DNA from: a virus
Taxonomy: Duplodnaviria; Caudoviricetes
DNA: 64,000 nucleotides
IMG/VR virus record: IMGVR_UViG_3300028886_000003
Location: 1-64,000 of that record
Direction: 5' to 3' (one strand)
How positions within the stretch are numbered: the stretch's first letter is position 1; the number at the start of each line of letters is the position of its first letter. Below the pieces are notes generated by a model, which saw only the letters and a program-made list of their open reading frames with translations, ran no database searches and was not told the origin of the DNA. A program made the translations under genes and the position numbers. This document shows positions 3-62,310 of the stretch, one piece after another.

Positions 3-3000
3 AGAAAAACAGTTATTGATTTAGGTGATGAATATAGAGAAAAATTTGCTGGAAACAAAAAAGAAGGACCAACGTTTTATGGCTCTGAAACAGGAGAACT
101 ATATACTGAGCCGCCTTGGGAACAAGAATATGATATGTCATATATGGCTAACATGGATATTCAAGGATATCATGATGTAAAAACATTAGGAAGTCATCAA
201 CAATTATCAGGTTATAAAAAAGGAGAGCAAAGTGTTAATAAAATTAAAAATATGCTTCTTGATAGTGCTACTAATGTTGTTGACCGTATATATAATTGGG
301 CAGGAGAATCAGACAGTAGTGAAAATGTCAATAAAATTGATAATTTTACTAATCGTATTTCCAACACTACAGAAATATTAAAAGGATTTTCATCTTATAT
401 GCAAGATACCAGTGAAGTGTTCCCACCATTAATTGGAGCTGTTGTAGCTTTAGAAGGTGTAATTAATGGTTTATCAATGGTTGAAAGTGGAGGTAGTGCA
501 ATAAGTGGATTTTTAAATATTGCTAACAAAATTGGAAATGAAGATAATCCTTTAGAAATATTTGGGCAAACTATTGAAGAAGACTCAAATATTGCAAAAT
601 TATTAATATCTGCTTCATCAACTTTAAACACTGTAATGTCAAGTATATTATCATTTGTTGAAGCATTTTTAGGTCCATTAATTTTAATAGCAGGGGCCTT
701 AGCTGCAACAAAAATAGCATTAGATTGGTCTTACCAATCACATGAAAAATATCTTAAATCATTAGAAGAAGAACAAAAAGCTAAAAGATCAAAAGCAAAA
801 GGATTACAATCAATTAATGAAAATGCTCAAAAAGCAGCAAGAGAAAATACAGCCCCAAGACAACAAGATAGACTAAACAGAAATGCACAATTAGCACAAA
901 CACAAGTTGATAACGCTAACATGACAAGAACACATGGTGCTATAGAACTAACACAAGCTAAAAATGATACATTATGGGGAGATTATGGAATTGCATCAGG
1001 CTTAGGAAAAATATCCGGAAATTATGAATCAACCGCACAAGAATATGAAGGAACAACAGAACAAATACGTAAAATCAAAGAAGAAACTCTAGCAAATCCA
1101 TTTGCTACTGATGCTATGAAACAATCTGCCGCATACTACGATGCTAACCAATTAACTTTCGGTATAATAGATGAATATAAAGATGAATTAGGTAAATTAT
1201 ATGATTCCGAAACAAGTGCAATGTTAAAATACAAAAGCGATGATGTAAGAGAGTCACCTGAGTTCCAAAAAGCATTAGATGATTTTGTAGAAGCAACAGG
1301 TATTACAAGAGATCATGCAAAACAATATTTAGACTATATGCAAACAGAACATGAAGTTGATAAAGCTACACAAAGTATGCAAGCACAAGCTGATCAAATT
1401 TCAGCAAGTACAGAATTAAAAGTACAAGCTATAGCATTTGGAGGTAACCCAGCCGATGTATTAGGTTTAAATGGTATTGAAGCACAACAAGATTCAATGA
1501 TAAAAGCACAAGCAGATATGATTAAATTAGAATTATCAGGTCAATTATGGTGGAAAGCTGTATGGGCAACAATTAGTTCACCATTTAAATTATTACTATC
1601 TCCATTATTAGTAATTACCGATTTATTAGGAGCTATATGGTCATTAATGACAGGTAATTGGAGTGATGCATTCGAAAAAGGTGGCAGAGCTGGATCAAGA
1701 TTAAATGTATTCGGAGAAGCAGCCACATATTGGGGTGCGTGGGCTGATGTAGAAAGTACAGACTTTAATGCTATAGGACAAGGAGCAACTGATAGTTATA
1801 ATAGGGCTAATTATGGAAATGTACAACAACCTGCTTCGGGTGGATACCATCCGACTCATTTCGTAAATGCAAACACTGGAGAAGACAGAAGAGAAGGACG
1901 TGCTGCATCAAATAGTTTTAACTTTAATGGAGGTGGAGGTAATGGTCCATCAGGAAATGTTGGAGTAGGAAGCTCATCACATAAAGGAAGTTATCATTTT
2001 GTTAATGGTTCACCAAGTCAGCCAATGGAAAGCGCTAATCCACTAACCAGTGGTGGAGGTATTTTAAGCGGTATAGCATCTGCTTTAAGTACAATAATCG
2101 GTATTTTAACCACAGGATTATTAGCTGGTGGAGGTATATATGGTATTTATAAATTCTTAAAATCTGACTTATCATTAAAAGATCTTGGAGGAGGAATACT
2201 AAAAGCTATCACCGGTGAAGGTAGTGATATATTTAGTGGTATGTTCAAAGAAGGAACATGGTTAGGTAAAATTAAAGATAAATTATTACCTAATTTTGAT
2301 GGAATATTTAAGGAAGGAACATTACTTGGTAAATTAAAAGATAAAGTTGCACCTCATTTAGGTGGTGTAAAAGAATCATATGATATTCGTAAAGATCAAA
2401 TAAAAGATTTCTTTAAAATTGGTACTGGCGAAGAAGGAGCAAAAGATATATTTGGCAATTTAAAAGATCGTATCTCTGGAATCAAAGATCACTTTGAAGA
2501 ACTGCCTGATGATTCTATTCAAGGACGTATATATAATAAGATTAGTAATAAAACTGGAGGCATATTAAGAGATGCTGAAGCATATAACAATATCGATCCT
2601 AATGGTGGAAATTATCCTACACATATAAAAGAAGCAATGGAAAAATCACGTGAAAATACATCATTTTCTACAAAAATGGTTGCAAAAGGATTACGTGTTA
2701 AAGATTCATTAAATAAATGGAAAGACTATGGAATTGATAAAGCACAAGGATTTATGGCTGGTAGAATTCAAAAAGATGATGAATATCAAAAATATAGTAA
2801 GTCTAAGCGTAGTCATTTAAATAAAGATCAGCAAAATTATTTAGTAGATAAATATTTAGATAAAGATGAATTTGATGAAAGTAATTTTGGATCAAGTAAA
2901 CAAAGAAGTAAGGCCATTAGAAATAAATTAGATGATATGGGCAAATGGAATGAAGCTAGTACTGATTTATATGCTAATGAAAATGGTGGATATGCTCAAG

Positions 3001-5639
3001 CAATGGGTAAAAGTATTATTAATAGATATACAAAACCTTGGAGAGAATATGGTGAAAAACAATATGGTAATTTAAAACAAAAAGCACAAGAATATAATGA
3101 AAATCCTACAGAAGATGCTTCTATGCCTGTAAAAGTTATGGCAAAAGGAATGCAAATCAAAGAAGCTGTTGAAGATCCTGACAAAATGATTGATATGGTA
3201 AAAGGATATGCTAATAAATATATTGATATGCAAGGTGAAGGATCTACATTAGGTAAATATAGAGAGAAATATCAAAAAGGTAAAGAAATTTTATCTGATC
3301 CAGCAAAAGCGGAAGAATGGGCTACTAACAAATACCAAGAAATAAAAGAAGACCCAGCATTGCAAGAAGAATATGATTGGTATAAACAAGGAGGGGCAAT
3401 GCGATTTGGTGATTTATCAAAAGAAAATAAAGTTAGAGCTATCGGAGATAAAATAAGTGAAGTAAAACAAAACACCTTTGGAATGGAAGAAGGGGAATCT
3501 GTCAGAGATATGTTACAGAATCCAGAACGTACAATGGAAGTATTAAAAACTGGATTTGAAAATATGCGTGAAAATGGTGTCATGGAATCATTAGGATTAG
3601 ATGAAGATTTCGGCATTATGGACGCTACAAAAGAAAAAATTTCAGGAATATTTGACCAAGTTAAAGAAGGTATAACTGATGGTATTGACGAAGATGATGA
3701 AAATGCTAGTTTCATCGATAAAGCTAAAAAGAAAATTGCAGGATTCTTTGGCTGGACAAAAGATGAACCTGAAGATAATAAGGATGCACTAAAAGAAGAA
3801 ATGGATTGGTACAAAGCAGGAGAACTTAATTATTCTGACTTAGAATATGAAAATAAAATAAAAGGTATTGATCCTACTTTAGAAAGGGATACATTCGGTG
3901 CGAAAAATGACTCATATTATGCTGATCCTAATGGAGAAGAAAGTCCTTTAAGAAAAATGACACGTAAATTAGCTAATGTTGAAACAGAAGATACAACTGA
4001 AGAAGAAGGAGAAGAAAAAGGTGGAATAATTCATAAATTAAAACGTAAAGTGTCAGGTATAAGAAAGTCTAAAAAAGATGATGATACTGAAGAGTCAGAA
4101 TCTTCATCAGATGATGATAAAAAAGAATCAAAAGGTATATTCCGTGGTGTTTTCGATACACTTAAACAGGCTCATCAAATAGATAAAAATCCTATTAAAG
4201 AAGAAATGAAAATGAATAAAGAGGCAGTAAAAAATGTTGTAACAGGAAAAGCATTTGATGTACAACAAAAACCTGATGTTGAAGGAGCTATGGCACAAAA
4301 ACAAATGAAAGTACCTAGTACTGCACAAAGTACTAAGCCAGTATTTAAAGAAGAACAACCTGGTGCAGCAACATCTTCACCATCTATTATGAAGATTAAT
4401 GAGGGTAGTAGTGTTGGTCATGCTAGCCAAAGAATAATGAGTGGAGAAGACCCTACTGATGTGGCGCTCGATACTGTTAAAGAAAAATTAACAGGAGGAG
4501 AAGGAGGAGTAAAAGGAGCTAACAATGCATTGAAAAAGACAGGTAAAATAACATCTAAAGTAGGAGAAATGGCTAAAGGTAAAGGGGGTAAAATTGGAAA
4601 AGTTGGAAATGTCTTAGAAAAAGTAGGAGGAGGAGCATCTAAAGCTGGTAATAAAGGTGTAACTAATGTTGCTAAAAGTGGTTTAGGAAAAGTAGCGAAA
4701 AGTGGAGTAGGAAAGGCTGCAAAAAGTGGTTTAGGTAAAGTGGCAAAAGGAGGAATAGGTAAAGCAGCGAAAGGAGGTTTGGGTAAAGTTGCTGGTAAAG
4801 TAGGGGGCAAAGTATTGGGTAAAGTTGGAGGAAAAATTGCTGGTAAAGTAGGAGCACAAGTAGCCTCAAAAGTACTTGCAGGTGGATTAGCTGCTACAGG
4901 AGTTGGTGCGCCATTAGCTGCAATTATGGCATCACCAATAGGAGGATTTTTAATGGAAGGTGCTATGGACTTAGGTGGAAAAGCATTAGGTGCTGTAGGA
5001 GGCGCTGTAGGTAATATAGGTAAAGCAATAGGAGGCTTCTTAGGCTTTGGACCTAAAAAAGCTAACAACCCTAGTGGTGGAATGAACCCATTAATGATGG
5101 CTTCACCATTAGGTGCTTTAGGAGCAATGGCTGGTGGCATAGGCTCAATGCTAGGAGGAGGAGGTGGTGGTAGTCCAATGGGTGCTGGTGTCGGAGGAGC
5201 TCCAGGTATGGGAGGTCCATTAGCTATGATGGCATCTCCATTAATGATGGGAGTTGGTTTATTAGGATCTATATTTAAAACTAATAAAGATCAAAAGAAT
5301 CAAAGTGCTGGTATTGGAGATATTGCAAAACGTATTCTTAAGAATATTGTTGATGGAAATAAAGGAGAATCCGGTGGTGGAAATGGAGGTAGTATAAAAA
5401 TACAAAATATTAATATTAATACCGCTGATGATCCTGAAGCAATTAAAGCAATGTTCTTAGAATTATTAATAGAATTGCAAGAACAAGTTAATCCTAGACT
5501 TGTATCAAGAACTGCTGGTAAACCTCCGGCTTCAAATGATACAAGTTCTACTGATACAAGTACAGAAACTGAAGATCAGACAGCAAATGAAAATAATACA
5601 GATACATCACAAACAAATTCAAATCAACAACAAAATTAG
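3..5639 (+). CDS. Tail tape measure protein (5'-truncated; frame is open from base 3)
   Basis: More than 1870 aa, helical and Ala/Gly-rich with hydrophobic segments and a C-terminal 'IKIQNININT' strand. It lies immediately upstream of the tail-tip genes, and there is no in-frame stop between base 3 and the ATG at 135. Confidence 0.8.
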   Translation, partial: RKTVIDLGDEYREKFAGNKKEGPTFYGSETGELYTEPPWEQEYDMSYMANMDIQGYHDVKTLGSHQQLSGYKKGEQSVNKIKNMLLDSATNVVDRIYNWAGESDSSENVNKIDNFTNRISNTTEILKGFSSYMQDTSEVFPPLIGAVVALEGVINGLSMVESGGSAISGFLNIANKIGNEDNPLEIFGQTIEEDSNIAKLLISASSTLNTVMSSILSFVEAFLGPLILIAGALAATKIALDWSYQSHEKYLKSLEEEQKAKRSKAKGLQSINENAQKAARENTAPRQQDRLNRNAQLAQTQVDNANMTRTHGAIELTQAKNDTLWGDYGIASGLGKISGNYESTAQEYEGTTEQIRKIKEETLANPFATDAMKQSAAYYDANQLTFGIIDEYKDELGKLYDSETSAMLKYKSDDVRESPEFQKALDDFVEATGITRDHAKQYLDYMQTEHEVDKATQSMQAQADQISASTELKVQAIAFGGNPADVLGLNGIEAQQDSMIKAQADMIKLELSGQLWWKAVWATISSPFKLLLSPLLVITDLLGAIWSLMTGNWSDAFEKGGRAGSRLNVFGEAATYWGAWADVESTDFNAIGQGATDSYNRANYGNVQQPASGGYHPTHFVNANTGEDRREGRAASNSFNFNGGGGNGPSGNVGVGSSSHKGSYHFVNGSPSQPMESANPLTSGGGILSGIASALSTIIGILTTGLLAGGGIYGIYKFLKSDLSLKDLGGGILKAITGEGSDIFSGMFKEGTWLGKIKDKLLPNFDGIFKEGTLLGKLKDKVAPHLGGVKESYDIRKDQIKDFFKIGTGEEGAKDIFGNLKDRISGIKDHFEELPDDSIQGRIYNKISNKTGGILRDAEAYNNIDPNGGNYPTHIKEAMEKSRENTSFSTKMVAKGLRVKDSLNKWKDYGIDKAQGFMAGRIQKDDEYQKYSKSKRSHLNKDQQNYLVDKYLDKDEFDESNFGSSKQRSKAIRNKLDDMGKWNEASTDLYANENGGYAQAMGKSIINRYTKPWREYGEKQYGNLKQKAQEYNENPTEDASMPVKVMAKGMQIKEAVEDPDKMIDMVKGYANKYIDMQGEGSTLGKYREKYQKGKEILSDPAKAEEWATNKYQEIKEDPALQEEYDWYKQGGAMRFGDLSKENKVRAIGDKISEVKQNTFGMEEGESVRDMLQNPERTMEVLKTGFENMRENGVMESLGLDEDFGIMDATKEKISGIFDQVKEGITDGIDEDDENASFIDKAKKKIAGFFGWTKDEPEDNKDALKEEMDWYKAGELNYSDLEYENKIKGIDPTLERDTFGAKNDSYYADPNGEESPLRKMTRKLANVETEDTTEEEGEEKGGIIHKLKRKVSGIRKSKKDDDTEESESSSDDDKKESKGIFRGVFDTLKQAHQIDKNPIKEEMKMNKEAVKNVVTGKAFDVQQKPDVEGAMAQKQMKVPSTAQSTKPVFKEEQPGAATSSPSIMKINEGSSVGHASQRIMSGEDPTDVALDTVKEKLTGGEGGVKGANNALKKTGKITSKVGEMAKGKGGKIGKVGNVLEKVGGGASKAGNKGVTNVAKSGLGKVAKSGVGKAAKSGLGKVAKGGIGKAAKGGLGKVAGKVGGKVLGKVGGKIAGKVGAQVASKVLAGGLAATGVGAPLAAIMASPIGGFLMEGAMDLGGKALGAVGGAVGNIGKAIGGFLGFGPKKANNPSGGMNPLMMASPLGALGAMAGGIGSMLGGGGGGSPMGAGVGGAPGMGGPLAMMASPLMMGVGLLGSIFKTNKDQKNQSAGIGDIAKRILKNIVDGNKGESGGGNGGSIKIQNININTADDPEAIKAMFLELLIELQEQVNPRLVSRTAGKPPASNDTSSTDTSTETEDQTANENNTDTSQTNSNQQQN
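4670..4860 (+). repeat. Degenerate 24-bp/12-bp coding tandem repeat (KSGLGKVA / GKVG units) in the TMP
   Basis: Translation reads AKSGLGKVAKSGVGKAAKSGLGKVAKGGIGKAAKGGLGKVAGKVGGKVLGKVGGKIAGKVG. Confidence 0.85.
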
Positions 5640-13679: not shown

Positions 13680-14231
13680 ATGGTTATATGTAATCGTGAA
13701 ATAGTTAAAACAATTACTTCAGATAATATTGATATTGATTCAGATTTTGATGAAAGAAAATGTCAAAATTTAAATCCTAATGCTGATATGTTAGATTTTA
13801 GAACTGCAATGGATAATCTTTCTTTTTATGAAAAAACAGATTTTGAACCATGTCAAGATCTATGGATGGTTTCAGATGCAGAATGCTTATGGCAATGTAT
13901 TGTTGGAGAAGTAAAAACACCATATCGTTCATTAAGTAATTCTTTAGGGCAATTAAATTATGGTTGTAAAATTTGGCAAATGATTGGTAGAAATTTAGAC
14001 CCACTTGAAATTAAAGATTTTGAGCATTATATTATTGAAACATGTTTGAAATATAATGAAGTAAATAATGTAACTAAAATTGATACTAAAATTGCAAGAA
14101 ATGGAGGAGCTCTACTTTGTGAATTAACTGTTGATAGTATTTATGGAGTTTTTGATGGAAAAATAAGAATACCAAGAGCTTTCCCAAGTAAACACAATTG
14201 GATATCAAAAGACAAATATGGTATCTCTTAA
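13680..14231 (+). CDS. gp25/gpW-like baseplate wedge (sheath initiator)
   Basis: Contains 'NYGCKIWQMIG...IIETCLKYNEVNNV'. Size and position match the gp25-like family. Confidence 0.65.
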   Translation: MVICNREIVKTITSDNIDIDSDFDERKCQNLNPNADMLDFRTAMDNLSFYEKTDFEPCQDLWMVSDAECLWQCIVGEVKTPYRSLSNSLGQLNYGCKIWQMIGRNLDPLEIKDFEHYIIETCLKYNEVNNVTKIDTKIARNGGALLCELTVDSIYGVFDGKIRIPRAFPSKHNWISKDKYGIS

Positions 14232-14235
14232 ATAC

Positions 14236-14260
14236 ATTAGAAGTAATAAATTATCATAAT
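14236..14260 (+). promoter_or_regulatory. Putative viral promoter motif ATTAGA-N13-CATAAT
   Basis: Intergenic, 51 nt upstream of the ATG at 14287. Similar motifs occur at 31202, 36337, 43577 and 57882 (-). Confidence 0.4.
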
Positions 14261-40881: not shown

Positions 40882-43572
40882 ATGGATATTGATGAAATAA
40901 AATTGTATACTCATAAAACAAAAGAAATAAAAGTAATAAATAAAAATAAACATTCATTATATAAATATGTTGTTTTAAAAATAAATGGCGACAAATGGAT
41001 GGTAAGAGATGATGAAACCATTCGTTTTAGCTTATCACCAACCGATGATTTTATTGATCACCAACAAATTGAAAAAGATTACTATTGTTATATTCCTAAT
41101 ATTTTAAATAATGAATTTTTAATATATGTACATTTTTTTCCATCTGATTTATATATTTACGAAATGTTAGATGACCTTGTATCAGAGTATGATTTTGAAA
41201 CACTAATGCAAGATGCAATAATTGAGTCAGAATATTACGAACAAGAATTTGACGAAAGTGGTAGATTAATTATTCAATCCACCGATTCAAATAGTATAAA
41301 TAATGTGCATAACCCTAATTATAAAAATTATACCAATGTTAATCCAAATATTAATAAAACTGGACAGGGATTTTTCCCATTGTCTAGTAGATATAGAACT
41401 TATCAAAATTGGCAAGTGCCTAATATTGAAAACCCAAGCCCAGAATGGAACATAACAAATAATAAAAATCCTTTTTGGCAAGCAAGAATTCCTTTTAATG
41501 ACTTAAATACTCCTACTAATGTTTTTATTAATTATGAATACTTACCAACATCAAGAGAATACCATCAGCATTACTTTGGTTTTGAACCAAAAGATATGAC
41601 TATTCTAAATAATGATTGTAAAACTCTTAATGTATTTGAAGGAACTAATATTAATCTATTAGATGATAAATTTGGGAGTAAAAAAAATTATCGTATTATT
41701 AACTTAGGAAATCCTTATGATGATACTTATAGCATGCTTGTTGAGCATGGTCAAACTATACCTGTTGATTTTGATAATTTAATACAATACAATAAAAATA
41801 CACAGATGTGTAGATGGAAAAAACATAAATGCAAAAATTATTATATTTATACTCCAGTTAATAATGATAATAACCCTCATTATTGTTATAGAGAAATTTC
41901 ATTAGAAAAAGATTCTTATTACAGTTTATTATACTATATCTATATTCCTTCTCAAACTAATATTAAAAATGAGGAAGGATATATTGATGTTGAAGTAGAT
42001 AATGTTAGTCATAAAATTGATGAAGGATTTCTTTTTAAAGACAAGCAATTACGAGATCAATGGATTTATCATGAAGTACCTTTTATTGCTGGTGATAAAA
42101 ATATAATAAAAATTTTTGGTCCACAAAAATATGATGAAAATAGTGATTATCCAAATTCTATTTATTTCCACTATTTAGAACTAAAGAAATTAGAGCAATA
42201 TTCTCCAACACTTAAATATACTGATATTGGATTAAATGTTACAGAGCAAAATCAGAAAATTTTTAGACCATTAGATAATAAGCCATGTACAAAAGTATCT
42301 ATTAATCCTGATAATAAAACTTATGAACCAAGTATTAAAGAATTTAGTACACCACACAGTAATATAAATATTGTATCAAAAGATGAAAAATATGTTTATT
42401 ATGATAAATATACAAGTGATCTTATATATGTAACGGATTCAGATGATGGAGCAATTGATTATATTGAAGAAACTAGTGATTTAATTTTTCCTGGTAATGA
42501 AGATATTAATTTTTATATTAATGATTATTCTTTATACTGTGATAGTAATAGAAAAATTACAGGAGTATATGGCCCAAATAATATCTTCTCTTTCGATTTT
42601 GTTGATGAAAATGATAATTTTATAAAAGAGGGAGAAGTTGAGGTAAGTATTTTAACACAAAAAGATAAAAGTATTGATAATAAAGGATTGCGTGTAACAC
42701 GAAGTTTTGTTCCAGTAACTGGCTCTATGGTTTTTAATAATGTTGATTTAACCTCTTTAAAACAAGATAATGATACTGATGAATATTTTATAAGATTATA
42801 TTATACTTCTAAATGCTTAGATGAACCTATAATTGTATTTAAAAAATTATATATGTATGATGAAGAGATTAGTATAAATAAAATAAAAATAAATGATACT
42901 GAATATAATGTTGAAGAAATTACAGAATATGTTATCGATGATGTACATGACTTCCCACTAAAAATAGAAGTACAATCTATCAATCAAAATAATGGAATAC
43001 AAACAGAAGGATATTATGAATTATCTATTAACGATGAATTAAATCAAAGCACTTTGATAGATAATGGGTGGGGTGATTTTTACCTACGGCAAGATGATCT
43101 TCAAATAGGAACACAAACAATTAAAATATCATATTATAGAAAAAATTATAGCTCATTAGCTTTTGTATATTTTAATATAAAAGTTGATAATTTAAAAAAT
43201 TTACAAGATTATGTTCCTATCGATTTAAAAATATTTAAAGATGGATTTACACAAGCATTACCATTAAATGACACAATTGAAGTAGAAAGTGATGATTGTG
43301 CATTATCAGTTATTGAAACAAAAAATCATAGTAAATTTAGAATAGAAGTATATCGTAATGATAAATTAATTATCAAAAAGAATATTTATAATCCAGTTGC
43401 ATCAGATATTAGTTTTGTGCACGCCGAATGGGATGAATGGCAAGAGCATGACCAATATACTTTCAAAATTGTTACAGGCAATATGTATGATGACAGTGGA
43501 AATATTATTCAAGACTTATATCGTGATTATGAGCGAACATTTGTAATTAGAAAAATACCAAAACCGATTTAA
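40882..43572 (+). CDS. Structural/adhesin protein with CBM-like and Ig-like domains (896 aa)
   Basis: Jelly-roll pattern 'ISLEKDSYYSLLYYIYIP...DQWIYHEVPF' and the Ig motif 'LQIGTQTIKISY'. Confidence 0.5.
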   Translation: MDIDEIKLYTHKTKEIKVINKNKHSLYKYVVLKINGDKWMVRDDETIRFSLSPTDDFIDHQQIEKDYYCYIPNILNNEFLIYVHFFPSDLYIYEMLDDLVSEYDFETLMQDAIIESEYYEQEFDESGRLIIQSTDSNSINNVHNPNYKNYTNVNPNINKTGQGFFPLSSRYRTYQNWQVPNIENPSPEWNITNNKNPFWQARIPFNDLNTPTNVFINYEYLPTSREYHQHYFGFEPKDMTILNNDCKTLNVFEGTNINLLDDKFGSKKNYRIINLGNPYDDTYSMLVEHGQTIPVDFDNLIQYNKNTQMCRWKKHKCKNYYIYTPVNNDNNPHYCYREISLEKDSYYSLLYYIYIPSQTNIKNEEGYIDVEVDNVSHKIDEGFLFKDKQLRDQWIYHEVPFIAGDKNIIKIFGPQKYDENSDYPNSIYFHYLELKKLEQYSPTLKYTDIGLNVTEQNQKIFRPLDNKPCTKVSINPDNKTYEPSIKEFSTPHSNINIVSKDEKYVYYDKYTSDLIYVTDSDDGAIDYIEETSDLIFPGNEDINFYINDYSLYCDSNRKITGVYGPNNIFSFDFVDENDNFIKEGEVEVSILTQKDKSIDNKGLRVTRSFVPVTGSMVFNNVDLTSLKQDNDTDEYFIRLYYTSKCLDEPIIVFKKLYMYDEEISINKIKINDTEYNVEEITEYVIDDVHDFPLKIEVQSINQNNGIQTEGYYELSINDELNQSTLIDNGWGDFYLRQDDLQIGTQTIKISYYRKNYSSLAFVYFNIKVDNLKNLQDYVPIDLKIFKDGFTQALPLNDTIEVESDDCALSVIETKNHSKFRIEVYRNDKLIIKKNIYNPVASDISFVHAEWDEWQEHDQYTFKIVTGNMYDDSGNIIQDLYRDYERTFVIRKIPKPI

Positions 43573-43576
43573 ATAT

Positions 43577-43601
43577 ATTAGAAAATAGATATGCCTATAA
43601 T
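43577..43601 (+). promoter_or_regulatory. Putative viral promoter motif ATTAGA-N13-TATAAT
   Basis: Intergenic, 50 nt upstream of the ATG at 43627, with the same spacing as the copy at 14236. Confidence 0.4.
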
Positions 43602-57034: not shown

Positions 57035-57628
57035 ATGGACAGAATTAAGGACGAAATACATGATATGTCTGAGAAGATATATGATCTACAGAATAAAACA
57101 GAGCACTTAACAAATGGACAAAGATATGCTGCTATTAATGAAATAGAAAAAAGTATTGCGCCCTTAAGAAATGACTTACATCATTTAGAACATAAACTAT
57201 ATAAACAGCAACATAATGAAGAGGAAATTGAAAAAGAAGTAAATCAAATATTAAGCCAAATTGCTGAACTTGAAAATTTAAAATCCGATCTTATAGCACG
57301 TATTAACACAGAAACAGAACACACACGTAAATACTATCATGATGAAGTTATGCAGTTTATGAAAAATGAGATTACACCATTGCATGATAGTGTTGTGAAG
57401 CATGAGCAGGAAATTGCTATTTTAAAATCAGATATAAAAAAAGAGTTTGCTCAATTTAGATTAGAACTTACTGAAGCAAATAAAAAAAGAGAAGTTGAGG
57501 ACGCCAAAAAATTTGATAAAATCAACATACTAATAGCTGGTTCAATAGGCGTTGTAGGCGGCCTCGGAACTCTTTTTATGTATTTTCAACCAGTATTACA
57601 AACTTTTGTGAAAATATTCTTTGGATAA
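57035..57628 (+). CDS. Coiled-coil protein with a C-terminal transmembrane helix (putative holin/XhlA-like)
   Basis: Long coiled coil followed by 'INILIAGSIGVVGGLGTLFMYFQPVL'. It is the last gene of the late arm. Confidence 0.5.
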   Translation: MDRIKDEIHDMSEKIYDLQNKTEHLTNGQRYAAINEIEKSIAPLRNDLHHLEHKLYKQQHNEEEIEKEVNQILSQIAELENLKSDLIARINTETEHTRKYYHDEVMQFMKNEITPLHDSVVKHEQEIAILKSDIKKEFAQFRLELTEANKKREVEDAKKFDKINILIAGSIGVVGGLGTLFMYFQPVLQTFVKIFFG

Positions 57629-57829
57629 TTATTTTAATGCCATTTTAATATCTTCAACTTTTACAGTTTCTCTACCAGCATGAGTAGCTAATCTTTTAGC
57701 TTTTTGAGTAATAGAAACACCTTCTGTTTCTAAAAATTCATTCAAGTATCTAACTGCATCTTCACTAATTCTGTTAGCTCCGGAATTTTTCATTAACCTT
57801 TTGGTTGGAGCAAATAATAATTCAGACAT
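57629..57829 (-). CDS. Archaeal histone (HMf/HMt family), virus-encoded
   Basis: MSELLFAPTKRLMKNSGANRISEDA...LATHAGRETVKVEDIKMALK aligns without gaps to HMfB, with R10, G16, R19, H49, R52, T54 and D59 conserved. GGGAG RBS. Confidence 0.93.
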   Translation of the reverse strand: MSELLFAPTKRLMKNSGANRISEDAVRYLNEFLETEGVSITQKAKRLATHAGRETVKVEDIKMALK

Positions 57830-57900
57830 TTATATCAATCTCCCTAATTTTAATATGTTTATTTTATAATAAACACTCTAATATCTATTTATCAAAGTAT

Positions 57901-58341
57901 TTAAACTTTTGGTTCTATCCAAAATTTATTTTTCTTACATTGTTGAATAAAAAATTTATATTCTTCAAAAGTAAAATTATATTTACGTAAAAAAATAGGT
58001 AAATCATATAACAAATTATTAAAAACACCAGGAATATCATACATAGTTACACGTGTATTAACAACTTTATCATAATCAATACCCTCTATTTTAATATCAG
58101 AATATTGCTTTAATTTATTAATAATTGTTTCTTCGTAATGTTCATTACCTTTTTCATAAAAATATAAATTTTTTTGTTCTTTTGTACAATCTCTACAATA
58201 ATAAGACAAATTATCTTTATTATTTTTATTTTTACTAAATTTATTTAATGGTAAAACTCTACCACATATATTACACTTCTTCTTTTCCACCTTAATCACA
58301 ATAAAAAAATAAATAAGGGGAGTATTTAATGAACGTTCCAC
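57901..58341 (-). CDS. Zinc-finger protein
   Basis: 'KKCNICGRVLPLNKFSKNK...YCRDC' is a finger of the type seen N-terminal to phage endonucleases. The start is uncertain. Confidence 0.55.
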   Translation of the reverse strand: MERSLNTPLIYFFIVIKVEKKKCNICGRVLPLNKFSKNKNNKDNLSYYCRDCTKEQKNLYFYEKGNEHYEETIINKLKQYSDIKIEGIDYDKVVNTRVTMYDIPGVFNNLLYDLPIFLRKYNFTFEEYKFFIQQCKKNKFWIEPKV

Positions 58342-60049: not shown

Positions 60050-60922
60050 CTACTCCTCCATAAAATCATCCAAAGTAATTATGCCTTCTTTCCATTCTTC
60101 CACAAATTTCCAAAATTGCTCTTCAGTATTATCTCCATAACCATGCTTTTGATGAAAAGCATCATGTAATTCTTCACAAATAACAACAACATTATCCAAA
60201 TCAATCCTACCTTCAACACACCAGTTATAACCATTTAAATGATGAACAACTAAATTATTAGTTTTTTTACCAGTAATTTCACATTTACCATTAGCCCTTT
60301 CACGTGCTGGTATAAATAAATCTAAAAAATAACTACCCTGATCAAAACATTCTAATTCCCTTTGAACAAGAAATGGTGGTACAAAACTTTTTAAATCTTC
60401 AATAGATATATCATATTTTTTAGATAATTCTTTATACACTTGTTCATATCTTTTTTTTTGATATTCTTTTTGATGTTCTATTATTTTTTCTTTATTATTT
60501 TGATAATATTGTCTTTTTTGTTTTTTTATTTTTTCTTTATTGTCTTGATAATATTGTTTTATTTTTTCTTTATTATCTTGACAATATTGTTTTTGATGTT
60601 CTTTTATTTTTTCTTTATTTTTTTGATAATATCGTCTATTCTGTTCTTTTATTTTTTCTTTATTATCTTGTTTATATTGTCTATTCTGTTCTTTTATTTT
60701 TTCTTTATTATTTTGATAATATTGTTTAAAATATTTTTTATTTTTTTGATAATATTGTCTATTCTGTTCTTTTATTTTTTCTTTATTATCTTGACAATAT
60801 TGTCTATTCCGTTCTTTCATTTTTTCTTTATTATTTTCTTCACTACATTCTTTAGAACAAGTAATAGTATTTCCTTTTGCATCAAATTCTTTACCACAAA
60901 TTACACAATTCTTTACCACCAT
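60050..60922 (-). CDS. HNH endonuclease with an N-terminal Zn finger and a 15-aa repeat coiled coil (copy 1)
   Basis: CxxC...CSxxC finger, YYQDNKEKIKE repeats, and 'CEITG...VVHHLNG...DNVVVICEELHDAFH'. Confidence 0.8.
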   Translation of the reverse strand: MVVKNCVICGKEFDAKGNTITCSKECSEENNKEKMKERNRQYCQDNKEKIKEQNRQYYQKNKKYFKQYYQNNKEKIKEQNRQYKQDNKEKIKEQNRRYYQKNKEKIKEHQKQYCQDNKEKIKQYYQDNKEKIKKQKRQYYQNNKEKIIEHQKEYQKKRYEQVYKELSKKYDISIEDLKSFVPPFLVQRELECFDQGSYFLDLFIPARERANGKCEITGKKTNNLVVHHLNGYNWCVEGRIDLDNVVVICEELHDAFHQKHGYGDNTEEQFWKFVEEWKEGIITLDDFMEE

Positions 60923-62310
60923 AAAAACATCACCTTATTACTCTTCCATAAAATCATCTAAAGTAACTAATCCTTTTTCCCATTCTTCAACAAATTTCCA
61001 AAATTGCTCTTCAGTATTATCTCCATAACCATATTTATTATGAAATGCAATATGCAATTCTTCACAAATAACAACAACATTATCTAAGTCCATTCTACCT
61101 TCAACACACCAGTTATAACCATTTAAATGGTGAACAACTAAATTCTTAGTTTTTTTACCAGTAATTTCGCATTTGCCATTAGCTCTTTCATGTGCTGGTA
61201 TAAACAAATCTAAAAAATAACTACCCTGATCAAAACAGTCCAGTTCTCTTTTAACAATAAATAGTGGCAAATAAACTTTTAAATCTTCAATAGATATATC
61301 ATATTTTTTAGATAATTCTTTATACACTTGCTCATATTTTTCTTTTTGATATTCTATTTGATATTCTATTATTTTTTCTCTATTATTTTGATAATATTCT
61401 TTTACTTTTTCTTTATTTTTTTGATAATACTGTCTTCTTCGCTCTCTTTCTTTTTCTTTATTATCTTGATAATACTGTCTTCTTTGTTTATTTATTTTTT
61501 CTCTATTTTCTTGACGATATCGTCTGCTTTGTTCTTTTAGTTTTTCTTTATTTTTTTGACGATATTGTCTACTTCGTTCTCTTTCTTTTTCTTTATTATC
61601 TTGATAATACTGTCTTCTTTGTTCATTTATTTTTTCTTTATTATCTTGACGATATTGTCTTTGATATTCTTTTACTTTTTCTTTATTATCTTGATAATAC
61701 TGTCTTTGATATTCTCTTTGATATTCTTTTACTGTTTCTTTATTTTTTTGATAATACTGTCTTCGATATTCATTTACTTTTTCTTTATTATTTTGACGAT
61801 ATTGTTTTCGATTTTGCTGTCTTCTTTTTATACTACATTTTTTAGAACAAGTAATAGCATTTCCTTTTGCATCAAATTCTTCACCACAAACTACACAATT
61901 TTTCATCACCATAAAAACATCACCTTATTGTTTCTCCTTATTTTTTTGATAATATTGTCTTTGATATTCTTTTAGTTTTTCTTTATTGTCTTGATAATAC
62001 TGTCTTCTTTGTTCATTTATTTTTTCTCTATTTTCTTGATAATACTGTCTTCTTTGTTTATTTATTTTTTCTTTATTGTCTTGATAATACTGTCTTCTTT
62101 GTTTATTTATTTTTTCTCTATTTTTTTGACGATATTGTCTTTGATATTCTTTTATTTTTTCTTTATTGTCTTGATAATATTGTTTTATTTTTTCTTTATT
62201 ATCTTGACAATATTGTTTTTGATGTTCTTTTATTTTTTCTTTATTATTTTGATAATATCGTTTATATTGTTCCCTTATTTTTTCTCTATTTTTTTGATAA
62301 TATTCTTTTT
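60440..62310 (-). repeat. Three tracts of degenerate ~45-bp (and 33-bp) coding tandem repeats
   Basis: Unit is approximately QYYQDNKEKIKEQxR. 60524-60619 is identical to 62150-62245 (96 bp). Confidence 0.9.
60938..61912 (-). CDS. HNH endonuclease with an N-terminal Zn finger and repeat coiled coil (copy 2)
   Basis: Nearly identical N- and C-terminal domains to copy 1, with a longer repeat tract. Confidence 0.8.
   Translation of the reverse strand: MVMKNCVVCGEEFDAKGNAITCSKKCSIKRRQQNRKQYRQNNKEKVNEYRRQYYQKNKETVKEYQREYQRQYYQDNKEKVKEYQRQYRQDNKEKINEQRRQYYQDNKEKERERSRQYRQKNKEKLKEQSRRYRQENREKINKQRRQYYQDNKEKERERRRQYYQKNKEKVKEYYQNNREKIIEYQIEYQKEKYEQVYKELSKKYDISIEDLKVYLPLFIVKRELDCFDQGSYFLDLFIPAHERANGKCEITGKKTKNLVVHHLNGYNWCVEGRMDLDNVVVICEELHIAFHNKYGYGDNTEEQFWKFVEEWEKGLVTLDDFMEE

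What the first reader, a model, noticed from the sequence alone, without database searches (positions are those of the whole stretch)
57629..57829. Virus-encoded archaeal histone variant with a charge reversal in a DNA-binding loop
Seen: a full HMf-type histone. Against HMfB, the canonical RKT(I/V)K loop is RETVK (K53 to E), the N-terminal P4 is L and the AGA loop is SGA. The tetramer residues (L46, H49, D59), R10, R19 and G16 are kept. Established: R10, R19, K53 and T54 contact DNA, and archaeal histones heterodimerise. Inference: this variant could co-assemble with host histones and weaken or cap hypernucleosomes (chromatin takeover or anti-silencing), or package viral DNA. It carries the same upstream ATTAGA motif as the structural operons, which hints at late expression.
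Basis: partly seen in the sequence, partly recalled or inferred. Interest (0 to 1): 0.75.

Follow-up and report, generated by a model that had tools for sequence, protein, structure and literature searches.

The report
Variant histone in methanogen virus
A complete 145-kb tailed virus of gut methanogens carries its own small histone gene, conserved across a widespread virus lineage, that has lost a DNA-contacting lysine kept by every host histone examined. Virus histones of this general type were already catalogued, and what this one does is untested.

Summary
It reads RETVK where HMfB reads RKTIK, L where HMfB has P4, and SGA for AGA. R10, K13, G16, R19, L46, H49, R52, T54 and D59 are kept.

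The record is a complete 145,330-bp myovirus-like genome with direct terminal repeats, terminase, portal, head, sheath, baseplate and a pseudomurein-binding lysin. The gene is not chimeric. Orthologues at 61-98% identity lie in the same gene order on hundreds of contigs up to 175 kb. Its GC matches the virus, and dN/dS is about 0.3.

The virus histones form one long-branched clade. All lack K53: Q in 16 of 18 variants, E only in this sub-lineage. All 48 distinct Methanobacteriaceae histones sampled have K, and HAGR[E/Q]T[V/I] was absent from 121 host-family genomes. The clade also lost two of three hypernucleosome stacking pairs and gained K/R9. Net charge is not lower than the host's.

H49 is kept, so it is not a capstone. 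ATTAGA occurs at chance frequency and is not conserved; a BRE/TATA box is. HMf-like histones in Caudoviricetes were reported by Liu et al. 2025, and this scan met several on other DNA. Function is inferred only.

The parts
57629..57829 (-). 66-aa virus-encoded HMf-type histone (single histone fold). Its loop 2 reads RETVK.
   Evidence: ORF. Pfam PF00808 at E 2.2e-14. PDB matches to HPhA, HMfA and HMfB. It is the only histone match in the 145-kb genome.
57668..57670 (-). GAA codon for E54, equivalent to HMfB K53. Host histones have AAA here and the other clade members have CAA.
   Evidence: Codon table; pattern match at G000:C1:57663-57682.
57840..57844 (-). Shine-Dalgarno-like GGGAG, 10 nt before the ATG.
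   Evidence: Sequence. GGAGG sits at the same place in orthologues.
57897..57911 (-). CAAAAG-TTTAAATAC, a BRE/TATA-like element 68 nt upstream of the ATG. It overlaps the stop codon of the upstream gene.
   Evidence: It is the only long invariant block in the upstream alignment of window, L125, L126, L130, L131, L133 and L134. It is conserved across a 1-nt indel that changes the upstream reading frame. Its role as a promoter is inferred.
57877..57882 (-). It is not a conserved signal.
   Evidence: 107 copies in the window against 101 +/- 10 in shuffles. It is not present in orthologous upstream regions.
57901..58341 (-). Upstream neighbour, a 146-aa zinc-ribbon-like protein. It is syntenic in related viruses.
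   Evidence: Weak Stc1/Zn_ribbon_2 matches. 85% identical to the neighbour in L125. A 136-aa gene holds the same position in L130-L134.
57035..57628 (+). Convergent neighbour, a 197-aa coiled-coil protein with a hydrophobic C-terminus. It is the last gene of the + strand structural block and abuts the histone stop codon with no gap.
   Evidence: ORF. 72% identical to the convergent neighbour in L126. A 199-aa gene is in the same place in L130-L134.

Best explanation
This is a genuine single-copy, virus-encoded nucleosomal (HMf-type) histone. It belongs to a widespread lineage of ~145-175-kb myovirus-like viruses of pseudomurein-walled gut or rumen methanogens, most likely Methanobrevibacter. 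The gene was probably captured long ago from a Methanobacteriaceae-like host and has since evolved as a virus-specific histone variant.

It keeps everything needed to fold, dimerise, form the four-helix-bundle tetramer and anchor DNA: R10, K13, R19, the R19-T54 pair and the R52-D59 clamp. It has systematically lost the loop-2 lysine K53 (Q in most members, E here) and two of the three inter-gyre stacking pairs of the HMfB hypernucleosome. It has gained a basic residue at position 9.

The most likely mechanism is inferred, not shown. The protein would be made from its own BRE/TATA promoter in the infected cell. It would bind DNA alone or co-polymerised with the abundant host histones, giving looser and more dynamic histone-DNA fibres. 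That would keep viral DNA, and possibly host DNA, accessible for replication, transcription and terminase-driven packaging. It would work as a chromatin-loosening variant rather than a chain-terminating capstone. The stated confidence is for the whole statement including this mechanism; the identity as a real virus-encoded histone is near certain.
For: Identity. Pfam and PDB matches.

Virus. Complete record with direct terminal repeats (116-bp repeat). Terminase, portal, major head, sheath, Baseplate_J and a pseudomurein-binding repeat.

Long residence and selection. Gene GC is 0.30 against 0.284 for the genome and 0.38-0.40 for host histone genes; dN/dS is 0.25-0.34. Orthologue P0163 is indexed in 745 blocks of the collection and seen on 488 contigs, the longest 175 kb. 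In all 5 places displayed it has the gene order NrdD ... 136-aa gene, histone, then a convergent 199-aa gene.

Separate clade. 100% SH-aLRT on a stem of 0.95 substitutions per site. The best cellular identity is 59%, to Methanobrevibacter.

Clade-specific changes against 48 distinct host-family histones: P4Q/L, V8T, G9K/R, K25V, A27Y, A29N, K/R48A/T, K53Q/E, mostly K56M, E34T. K53 is invariant in hosts, and HAGR[E/Q]T[V/I] is absent from 121 genomes.

Literature. Residues 10/19/53/54 contribute strongly to DNA binding and 46/49/59/62 to tetramerisation (PMC7776873). The stacking pairs are K30-E61, E34-R65 and R48-D14, and fewer such pairs are predicted to give 'floppy' hypernucleosomes (PMC6136690).

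Promoter. A dedicated conserved BRE/TATA.
Against: There are no expression, binding or structural data of any kind; the only RNA route was unavailable. Net charge and pI (+3, 9.5) are not lower than the host's (+2, about 9.1), and the new K/R9 and R18 could compensate fully for K53 loss. Eukaryotic H3 and H2B lack a lysine at this loop-2 position and still wrap DNA (own knowledge). Non-lysine residues occur at this site in about 23% of archaeal histone cluster representatives, including cellular Thermoplasmatales/Euryarchaeota histones with RET. The remodelled N-terminal half of helix 2 (V25, K/R26, Y27, N29) might favour homodimers, which would undercut co-assembly with host histones. The host genus is inferred, not shown.
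Confidence: 0.45

Rival explanations
1. It is an ordinary DNA-compacting histone for the virus's own replicating genome. The substitutions are neutral or charge-compensated. The protein coats viral DNA much as host histones coat the chromosome, for example to organise replication intermediates or shield them from nucleases or CRISPR.
For: All fold, tetramer and arginine-anchor residues are kept. Net charge is equal to or above the host's. Purifying selection acts on the gene. Other methanogen viruses carry canonical RKT histones: L002 has two and MFTV1 has one.
Against: The loss of K53, of K/R48 and of E34 is fixed across the whole virus clade, while these residues are invariant or nearly so in 48 host-family histones. 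This argues for a changed property and not for drift. The host already supplies abundant histones, so a plain copy would add little.
Confidence: 0.25
2. It is a regulatory histone-fold protein. It would act at specific viral or host sites such as promoters, an origin or a pac site, in the way NF-Y/TAF-like factors or the histone-assisted CRISPR leader do, and not as a bulk chromatin protein.
For: It is single-copy with its own promoter. The DNA-contact surface is redistributed towards the helix-1 N-terminus, with K/R9 gained and K53/K56 lost. Weak Pfam similarity to TAF/TFIID histone folds is seen, though that is generic for this fold.
Against: It has no extra domain, tail or partner gene. Its sequence is closest to bulk nucleosomal histones. 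The tetramer interface and G16 typical of polymerising histones are retained.
Confidence: 0.1
3. It is a virion-packaged histone that condenses the genome inside the capsid, as in Marseilleviridae.
For: The gene borders the structural module. In another methanogen virus (L002), histone genes sit about 3 kb upstream of the terminase gene.
Against: The gene lies on the opposite strand, at the end of the NrdD/replication-side block. Tailed viruses thread naked DNA through the portal with a terminase motor, so histone-wrapped DNA is hard to reconcile with that (established knowledge). The ATTAGA 'late' motif is not supported.
Confidence: 0.05
4. It is an artefact or passenger: a chimeric assembly, a very recent host capture or a decaying pseudogene.
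For: One related 734-bp contig (L125) has an in-frame TGA at codon 4. P0018 and P0019 are truncated or aberrant forms.
Against: Gene order is conserved in many independent assemblies. The genome is complete with direct terminal repeats. GC is virus-like and dN/dS is about 0.3. The frame is intact in the window and in L126, L127 and L130-L134.
Confidence: 0.02

Closest known systems
Archaeal nucleosomal histones HMfB/HMfA (M. fervidus), HPhA (P. horikoshii) and the chromosomal histones of Methanobrevibacter
   Same: Same length and three-helix histone fold, with end-to-end alignment. 59% identity to Methanobrevibacter histones. R10, K13, G16, R19, L46, H49, R52, T54 and D59 are kept.
   Different: It is encoded by a virus and sits on a separate long branch. 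K53 is E, and Q in its relatives. P4, K/R48 and E34 are lost, K/R9 is gained, and the N-terminus of helix 2 is remodelled to V-K/R-Y-L-N.
[quoted passage not shown] 2025, hLife, PMC13681535)
   Same: Same kind of object: archaeal-like histones in tailed-virus records of IMG/VR. [quoted passage not shown]
   Different: That paper names the cluster but gives no residue-level, phylogenetic, synteny or promoter analysis. The K53 loss, the stacking-pair loss and the spread of this lineage are not described there. I could not check whether this exact protein is in their set.
Capstone histone variants of Methanobacteriales (Msp_0383, Msm_1260; Stevens et al. 2020, PMC7776873)
   Same: The idea of a paralog that alters oligomer stability through single substitutions at structurally sensitive sites. 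Residue 53 is listed there among the sites that diversify in multi-histone archaea.
   Different: The capstone marker is an acidic or hydrophobic residue 49. Here H49 is kept, together with L46, D59 and M62. The changes lie in loop 2 and the stacking surface, not in the dimer-dimer interface.
Alpha3-truncated 'phage histones' (Schwab et al. 2024, PMC11390915)
   Same: Histone-fold proteins encoded by tailed viruses.
   Different: Those have a 3-4-residue helix 3, lack the RxTxxxD motif and carry a C-terminal tetramerisation helix. This protein has a full helix 3, the R-T-D motif and no extra domain.
Histone-fold proteins of other methanogen viruses: MFTV1 QNO11499.1 (annotated hypothetical) and the tandem pair in IMGVR_UViG_3300045988_184099 (L002)
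   Same: Histone folds in tailed viruses of methanogens.
   Different: These keep the canonical R-K-T loop, are only 43-48% identical and are not in the same clade. One L002 copy groups with a Methanosphaera-genome paralog.

Membership tests
Archaeal nucleosomal (HMf-type) histone, Pfam PF00808 | Single histone fold of about 65-70 aa scoring above the family's curated cut-off | tested here: met
   53.9 bits against a cut-off of 21.4, E 2.2e-14, covering profile positions 6-65 of 65. Full-length alignment to HPhA, HMfA and HMfB.
Archaeal nucleosomal (HMf-type) histone, Pfam PF00808 | Minor-groove arginine anchors R10 and R19, the R19-T54 pair and the R52-D59 clamp | tested here: met
   R11, R20, T55, R53 and D60 in query numbering. 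All are invariant in the virus clade apart from one R10I variant. Their roles are as described in PMC6136690 and PMC13260811.
Archaeal nucleosomal (HMf-type) histone, Pfam PF00808 | Loop-2 R-K-T motif with the DNA-contacting lysine K53 | tested here: not met
   The window has R-E-T and 16 of 18 clade variants have R-Q-T. K is present in 48 of 48 host-family histones and in 100 of 130 motifs among the top 150 cluster representatives.
Hypernucleosome-forming histone (criteria of Henneman et al. 2018) | Dimer-dimer interface L46, H49, D59, L62 | tested here: met
   L, H, D and M here; M62 also occurs in 15 of 48 host histones.
Hypernucleosome-forming histone (criteria of Henneman et al. 2018) | Small residue (G16) at the stacking interface | tested here: met
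   G17 in query numbering, invariant in the clade.
Hypernucleosome-forming histone (criteria of Henneman et al. 2018) | Stacking interactions 30-61, 34-65 and 14-48 | tested here: inconclusive
   The 30-61 pair is kept as E-K. The 34-65 pair is T-K here (T-N in the main branch) against E-K in hosts. The 14-48 pair is N-T or N-A against N-K/R in hosts. One of three pairs is clearly retained. The effect on fibre stability was not measured.
Hypernucleosome-forming histone (criteria of Henneman et al. 2018) | Wraps or compacts DNA into multimers | not testable with these tools
   This needs EMSA, MNase, tweezers or a structure with DNA.
Capstone histone variant (Stevens et al. 2020) | Acidic or hydrophobic residue at position 49 that destabilises the dimer-dimer interface | tested here: not met
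   H50 (HMfB H49) is invariant in all 18 clade variants. The marker is defined.
Alpha3-truncated phage histones (Schwab et al. 2024) | Helix 3 truncated to 3-4 residues, no RxTxxxD motif, C-terminal tetramerisation helix | tested here: not met
   Full helix 3 (VEDIKMALK), R53-T55-D60 present, and the protein ends at residue 66.
HMf-like viral histone-fold proteins of Caudoviricetes (Liu et al. 2025) | HMfA/B-profile hit encoded on a high-confidence IMG/VR Caudoviricetes genome with an archaeal host | tested here: met
   An IMG/VR virus record, complete with direct terminal repeats. Caudoviricetes hallmark genes. Pseudomurein-binding repeat. HMf similarity. Inclusion of this exact protein in their list was not checked.

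The most novel reading that the evidence does not exclude
A widespread lineage of large gut-methanogen viruses encodes a dedicated 'chromatin-opening' histone. It would enter host hypernucleosomes through an intact dimer and tetramer interface. Because it lacks the loop-2 lysine(s) and two stacking pairs, it would loosen or destabilise them. This would be the first viral counter-chromatin factor described for archaea, analogous to a dominant-negative histone variant. The Q-to-E step in this sub-lineage would be a further escalation.
Probability: 0.2. Interest if true: 0.8.

Novelty: new variant of a known kind. Interest (0 to 1): 0.45.

Why it matters
How archaeal viruses cope with histone-packaged host and viral DNA is essentially unknown. 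Here a natural virus-evolved histone differs from host histones at a handful of well-mapped positions: K53, K56, R48, E34, G9 and P4. It is conserved with its own promoter in an abundant virus lineage of gut and rumen methanogens. That gives a compact, directly testable system: one 66-aa protein, defined revertants and known host partners. It can be used to ask whether viruses manipulate archaeal chromatin, and what K53 and the stacking pairs contribute to hypernucleosome stability. If the substitutions prove neutral, it is simply one more catalogued viral histone.

Tried and rejected
1. The single-protein scan of viral contigs found no relative. The 15-sequence alignment was too diverse for the search for related loci. 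A 6-sequence alignment found only L002.

2. The word-indexed protein search gave only 2 hits. The exhaustive search and the cluster look-up were needed to find the lineage.

3. Two 'HAGRLT' pattern hits in host genomes looked like host paralogs lacking K53. They are ribosomal protein uL4, not histones.

4. ATTAGA as a shared late-promoter motif is rejected. The sigma-70/terminator scan is uninformative for an archaeal virus.

5. TTTAAATA alone is too frequent in this AT-rich genome (62 copies) to classify promoters.

7. Complex prediction was deliberately not run. A histone homo- or heterodimer would pass by likeness to solved structures, and the score of one chain cannot separate the dimer interface from the tetramer interface.

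8. PHROGs has no family for this protein.

9. The capstone reading is rejected because H49 is kept.

10. The tree cannot resolve the donor lineage: it has 68 columns and 47 of 80 inner branches are unsupported. The sister position next to one Methanobacterium sequence depends on midpoint rooting and is not trusted.

Full report
**1. The observation**

The minus strand of window 57629-57829 holds an ATG-started 66-codon ORF, with GGGAG 10 nt upstream. The product matches Pfam PF00808 (CBFD_NFYB_HMF) at E 2.2e-14, well above the curated cut-off. It aligns from first to last residue with solved archaeal histones: HPhA at E 1.4e-16, HMfA at 7.8e-14 and HMfB at 1.6e-12.

Query numbering is HMfB numbering plus 1.
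- Changed: RETVK for RKTIK (K53E), L at P4, SGA for AGA.
- Kept: R10, G16, R19, L46, H49, D59, and also K13, R52 and T54.

The GAA codon is present on at least six independent contigs, so it is not a sequencing error.

**2. What carries it**

The window is the first 64 kb of a 145,330-bp IMG/VR virus record classed as complete with direct terminal repeats. I found a 116-bp terminal repeat.

The genome encodes:
- terminase large subunit, portal, major head proteins, tail sheath and a minor tail protein;
- a Baseplate_J protein and Ig-like fibre proteins;
- an endolysin-like protein with a pseudomurein-binding repeat.

It is therefore a myovirus-like member of the Caudoviricetes. Pseudomurein points to a host in the Methanobacteriales. 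The low GC (0.28), the gut-metagenome origin of related contigs and best histone identity to Methanobrevibacter suggest that genus, but this is inference.

The genome has a + strand block (135-57628) of tail, baseplate and fibre genes. A long minus-strand block (57629 to about 120 kb) begins at the histone and contains NrdD and many small genes. The histone is the promoter-distal last gene of the minus block. It abuts the last structural gene tail to tail with no gap. It is the only histone-fold match in the genome.

**3. Not chimeric, not recent, not decaying**

Close relatives exist only in metagenomes:
- P0001 at 98% identity;
- P0002 and P0177 at about 75%;
- the P0163 group at 61-67%.

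Their contigs reproduce the window's neighbours. The convergent 197-aa gene is 72% identical in L126. The upstream Zn-ribbon gene is 85% identical in L125.

P0163 is indexed in 745 blocks of the assembly collection and seen on 488 contigs, the longest 175 kb. In all five places displayed, the order is NrdD, small genes, a 136-aa gene, the histone, then convergent 199-aa, 112-aa and ~1780-aa genes.

The gene's GC (0.30) matches the virus (0.284), not host histone genes (0.38-0.40). Pairwise dN/dS is 0.25-0.34, from only 66 codons with dS of about 0.7.

**4. Relationship to host histones**

A scan of one genome per prokaryote species found no cellular relative above 59% identity. The best were Methanobrevibacter, with Thermococcus and Archaeoglobus at 53-56%.

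In a maximum-likelihood tree of 83 distinct sequences, the virus proteins form one clade with 100% SH-aLRT support on a stem of 0.95 substitutions per site. Only 68 columns were available, so the donor lineage is unresolved.

I compared 18 distinct clade variants with 48 distinct Methanobacteriaceae histones. The clade-specific states, in HMfB numbering, are:

| Position | Host state | Virus clade state |
|---|---|---|
| P4 | P in 48/48 | Q/L |
| V/I8 | V/I/L | T |
| G9 | mostly G | K/R |
| Q/E18 | mostly Q/E | R/N |
| K25 | K in 40/48 | V |
| A27 | A in 36/48 | Y |
| A29 | A in 43/48 | N |
| K/R48 | K/R in 46/48 | A/T (V in one) |
| K53 | K in 48/48 | Q in 16, E in 2 |

Also frequent in the clade are K56M (16/18), E34T (15/18) and K65N (14/18).

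A DNA pattern for H-A-G-R-[E/Q]-T-[V/I] matched 0 of 121 Methanobacteriaceae genomes. With the codon left open, the same pattern found the histone genes of four host-family genomes, all with AAA, and the window's GAA. The two TTA hits were ribosomal protein uL4. So host paralogs do not carry this substitution.

Outside this family the site is less rigid. Among motifs found in the top 150 cluster representatives, K accounts for 100 of 130, E for 4, D for 2 and Q for 4. One RET cluster contains cellular Thermoplasmatales/Euryarchaeota MAG histones.

The codon series AAA (hosts), CAA (most of the clade), GAA (window) and the tree topology suggest K to Q at the base of the clade, then Q to E in this sub-lineage. 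This order is an inference.

**5. What the residues imply**

Published work assigns large DNA-binding contributions to residues 10, 19, 53 and 54, and tetramerisation to 46, 49, 59 and 62. It also shows that exactly these sites diversify in multi-histone archaea (PMC7776873).

Henneman et al. list three criteria for hypernucleosome formation: the dimer-dimer interface, G16, and the stacking pairs K30-E61, E34-R65 and R48-D14. They predict 'floppy' fibres when stacking pairs are few (PMC6136690).

The virus histone meets the first two criteria. It keeps the 30-61 pair as E-K, like its hosts. It has lost the acidic partner of 34-65 and the basic partner of 14-48.

The capstone marker of Stevens et al., an acidic or hydrophobic residue 49, is absent because H49 is kept.

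Net charge is +3 (pI 9.5) for the window protein and +4 for the main branch, against +2 for Methanobrevibacter histones. The protein is not an acidic decoy. Positive charge has moved from loop 2 and the stacking face towards the N-terminus of helix 1 (K/R9) and, in the main branch, loop 1 (R18).

My reading is inferential. The protein is still a DNA-binding, oligomerising histone, with weakened L1L2 contacts and weakened gyre stacking. Alone or mixed with host histones, it would give looser, more dynamic fibres.

The remodelled N-terminal half of helix 2 (V25-K/R26-Y27, N29) could alter partner preference. I could not test this.

**6. Expression signals**

ATTAGA occurs 107 times in the window against 101 +/- 10 in shuffles. 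It is enriched within 90 nt upstream of + strand starts: 11 of 26, where about 3 would be expected from its + strand density. But the contexts are heterogeneous, including ATTAGAGGT ribosome-binding sites and the ends of upstream coding sequences.

A composite TT(T/A)AATA(C/T)ATTAGA occurs only three times in the genome, all on the + strand. The sites are before the 3868-aa gene, the 2470-aa gene and a major-head-like gene. This is a plausible late promoter.

Upstream of the histone, the TATA box and the ATTAGA are 15 nt apart. ATTAGA is also missing from every orthologous upstream region.

What is conserved there is CAAAAG(A)TTTAAATAC (window 57897-57911). It is invariant in seven sequences even though a 1-nt indel changes the reading frame of the overlapping upstream gene. 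This fits a BRE/TATA promoter dedicated to the histone. Timing cannot be inferred, and RNA data could not be obtained.

**7. Comparison with what is known**

Liu et al. 2025 (PMC13681535) mined IMG/VR 4 with HMfA/B profiles. They reported archaeal-like histones and an 'M. fervidus HMf-like viral HFP' cluster in Caudoviricetes, without further description. [quoted passage not shown] I read that as Methanobacteriota hosts for the archaeal-like set.

Schwab et al. 2024 describe a different, alpha3-truncated 'phage histone'.

Among deposited virus genomes only MFTV1 matches. Its 94-aa 'hypothetical protein' has a canonical RKT loop. Another IMG/VR methanogen virus (L002) has two tandem canonical histones.

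Earlier agents of this scan met virus-encoded archaeal histones on several other genomes and reached the same 'rare but reported' verdict.

The kind of object is therefore known. What is new here:
- a well-delimited, abundant virus clade with conserved gene order and promoter;
- a consistent, host-absent set of substitutions at functionally mapped sites.

**8. Verdict**

I rate this a new variant of a known kind, with moderate interest (0.45). It offers a clean experimental handle on virus-chromatin interplay in archaea, but every functional statement remains inference.

Noticed in passing
L002:5771-5977 and L002:6001-6204 (IMGVR_UViG_3300045988_184099, 52 kb): Another methanogen tailed virus carries two tandem histone genes with canonical R-K-T loops, about 3 kb upstream of its terminase (L002:9332-10768). 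The first copy groups with a paralog in a Methanosphaera genome (L092) at 100% SH-aLRT on a long branch. That suggests either a separate capture or a provirus in that genome.
   Followed up: partly
L136:1489-1773 (MT711370.1, Methanocaldococcus fervens tailed virus 1, QNO11499.1): This cultured archaeal virus has a 94-aa 'hypothetical protein' that is a histone fold, with the motif ...KSGRKTIKKEDI.... It was the only hit for the window histone among 50,697 deposited phage and virus records (E 7e-4, 43% identity).
   Followed up: partly
window 14228-14241 and 43569-43582; genome 128546-128559 (+): The composite motif TT(T/A)AATA(C/T)ATTAGA occurs only three times in the 145-kb genome, all on the + strand. 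Each copy lies 45-60 nt before a giant structural gene (3868 aa or 2470 aa) or a major-head-like gene. It is a candidate late promoter.
   Followed up: partly
L125:408-410: One 734-bp gut-metagenome contig of the P0163-type orthologue has TGA where all others have TTA, at codon 4 of the histone. It may be a null allele or a sequencing error. The gene caller had read it with TGA=W.
   Followed up: partly
L130-L134, between NrdD and the small-gene run (about locus 1500-3100): The slot downstream of NrdD is variable among otherwise collinear related viruses. It holds an IS605 OrfB/TnpB (Cas12f1-like) gene in L131, rubrerythrin plus a 514-aa gene in L133, a GIY-YIG nuclease in L134, and other genes in L130 and L132.
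   Followed up: no
P0006 (1155 aa), P0005 (374 aa), P0003/P0008 (150 aa): The exhaustive search returned multi-histone-fold proteins. One is a 1155-aa protein with 17 matched histone-fold stretches, and there are several doublets. Their origin is unknown.
   Followed up: no
window 60050-60922 and 60938-61912 (-): Two adjacent paralogous genes encode long runs of a lysine/glutamine-rich repeat (QYYQ.NKEKIKEQNR...), followed by a conserved C-terminal domain ending ...FWKFVEEW..G..TLDDFMEE. They have no Pfam match.
   Followed up: no
window 57626-57631: The histone gene and the last gene of the structural block meet stop codon to stop codon with no intergenic base, and they overlap by 6 nt in L130-L134. 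Transcripts from either side must therefore terminate inside, or read into, the opposite gene.
   Followed up: no
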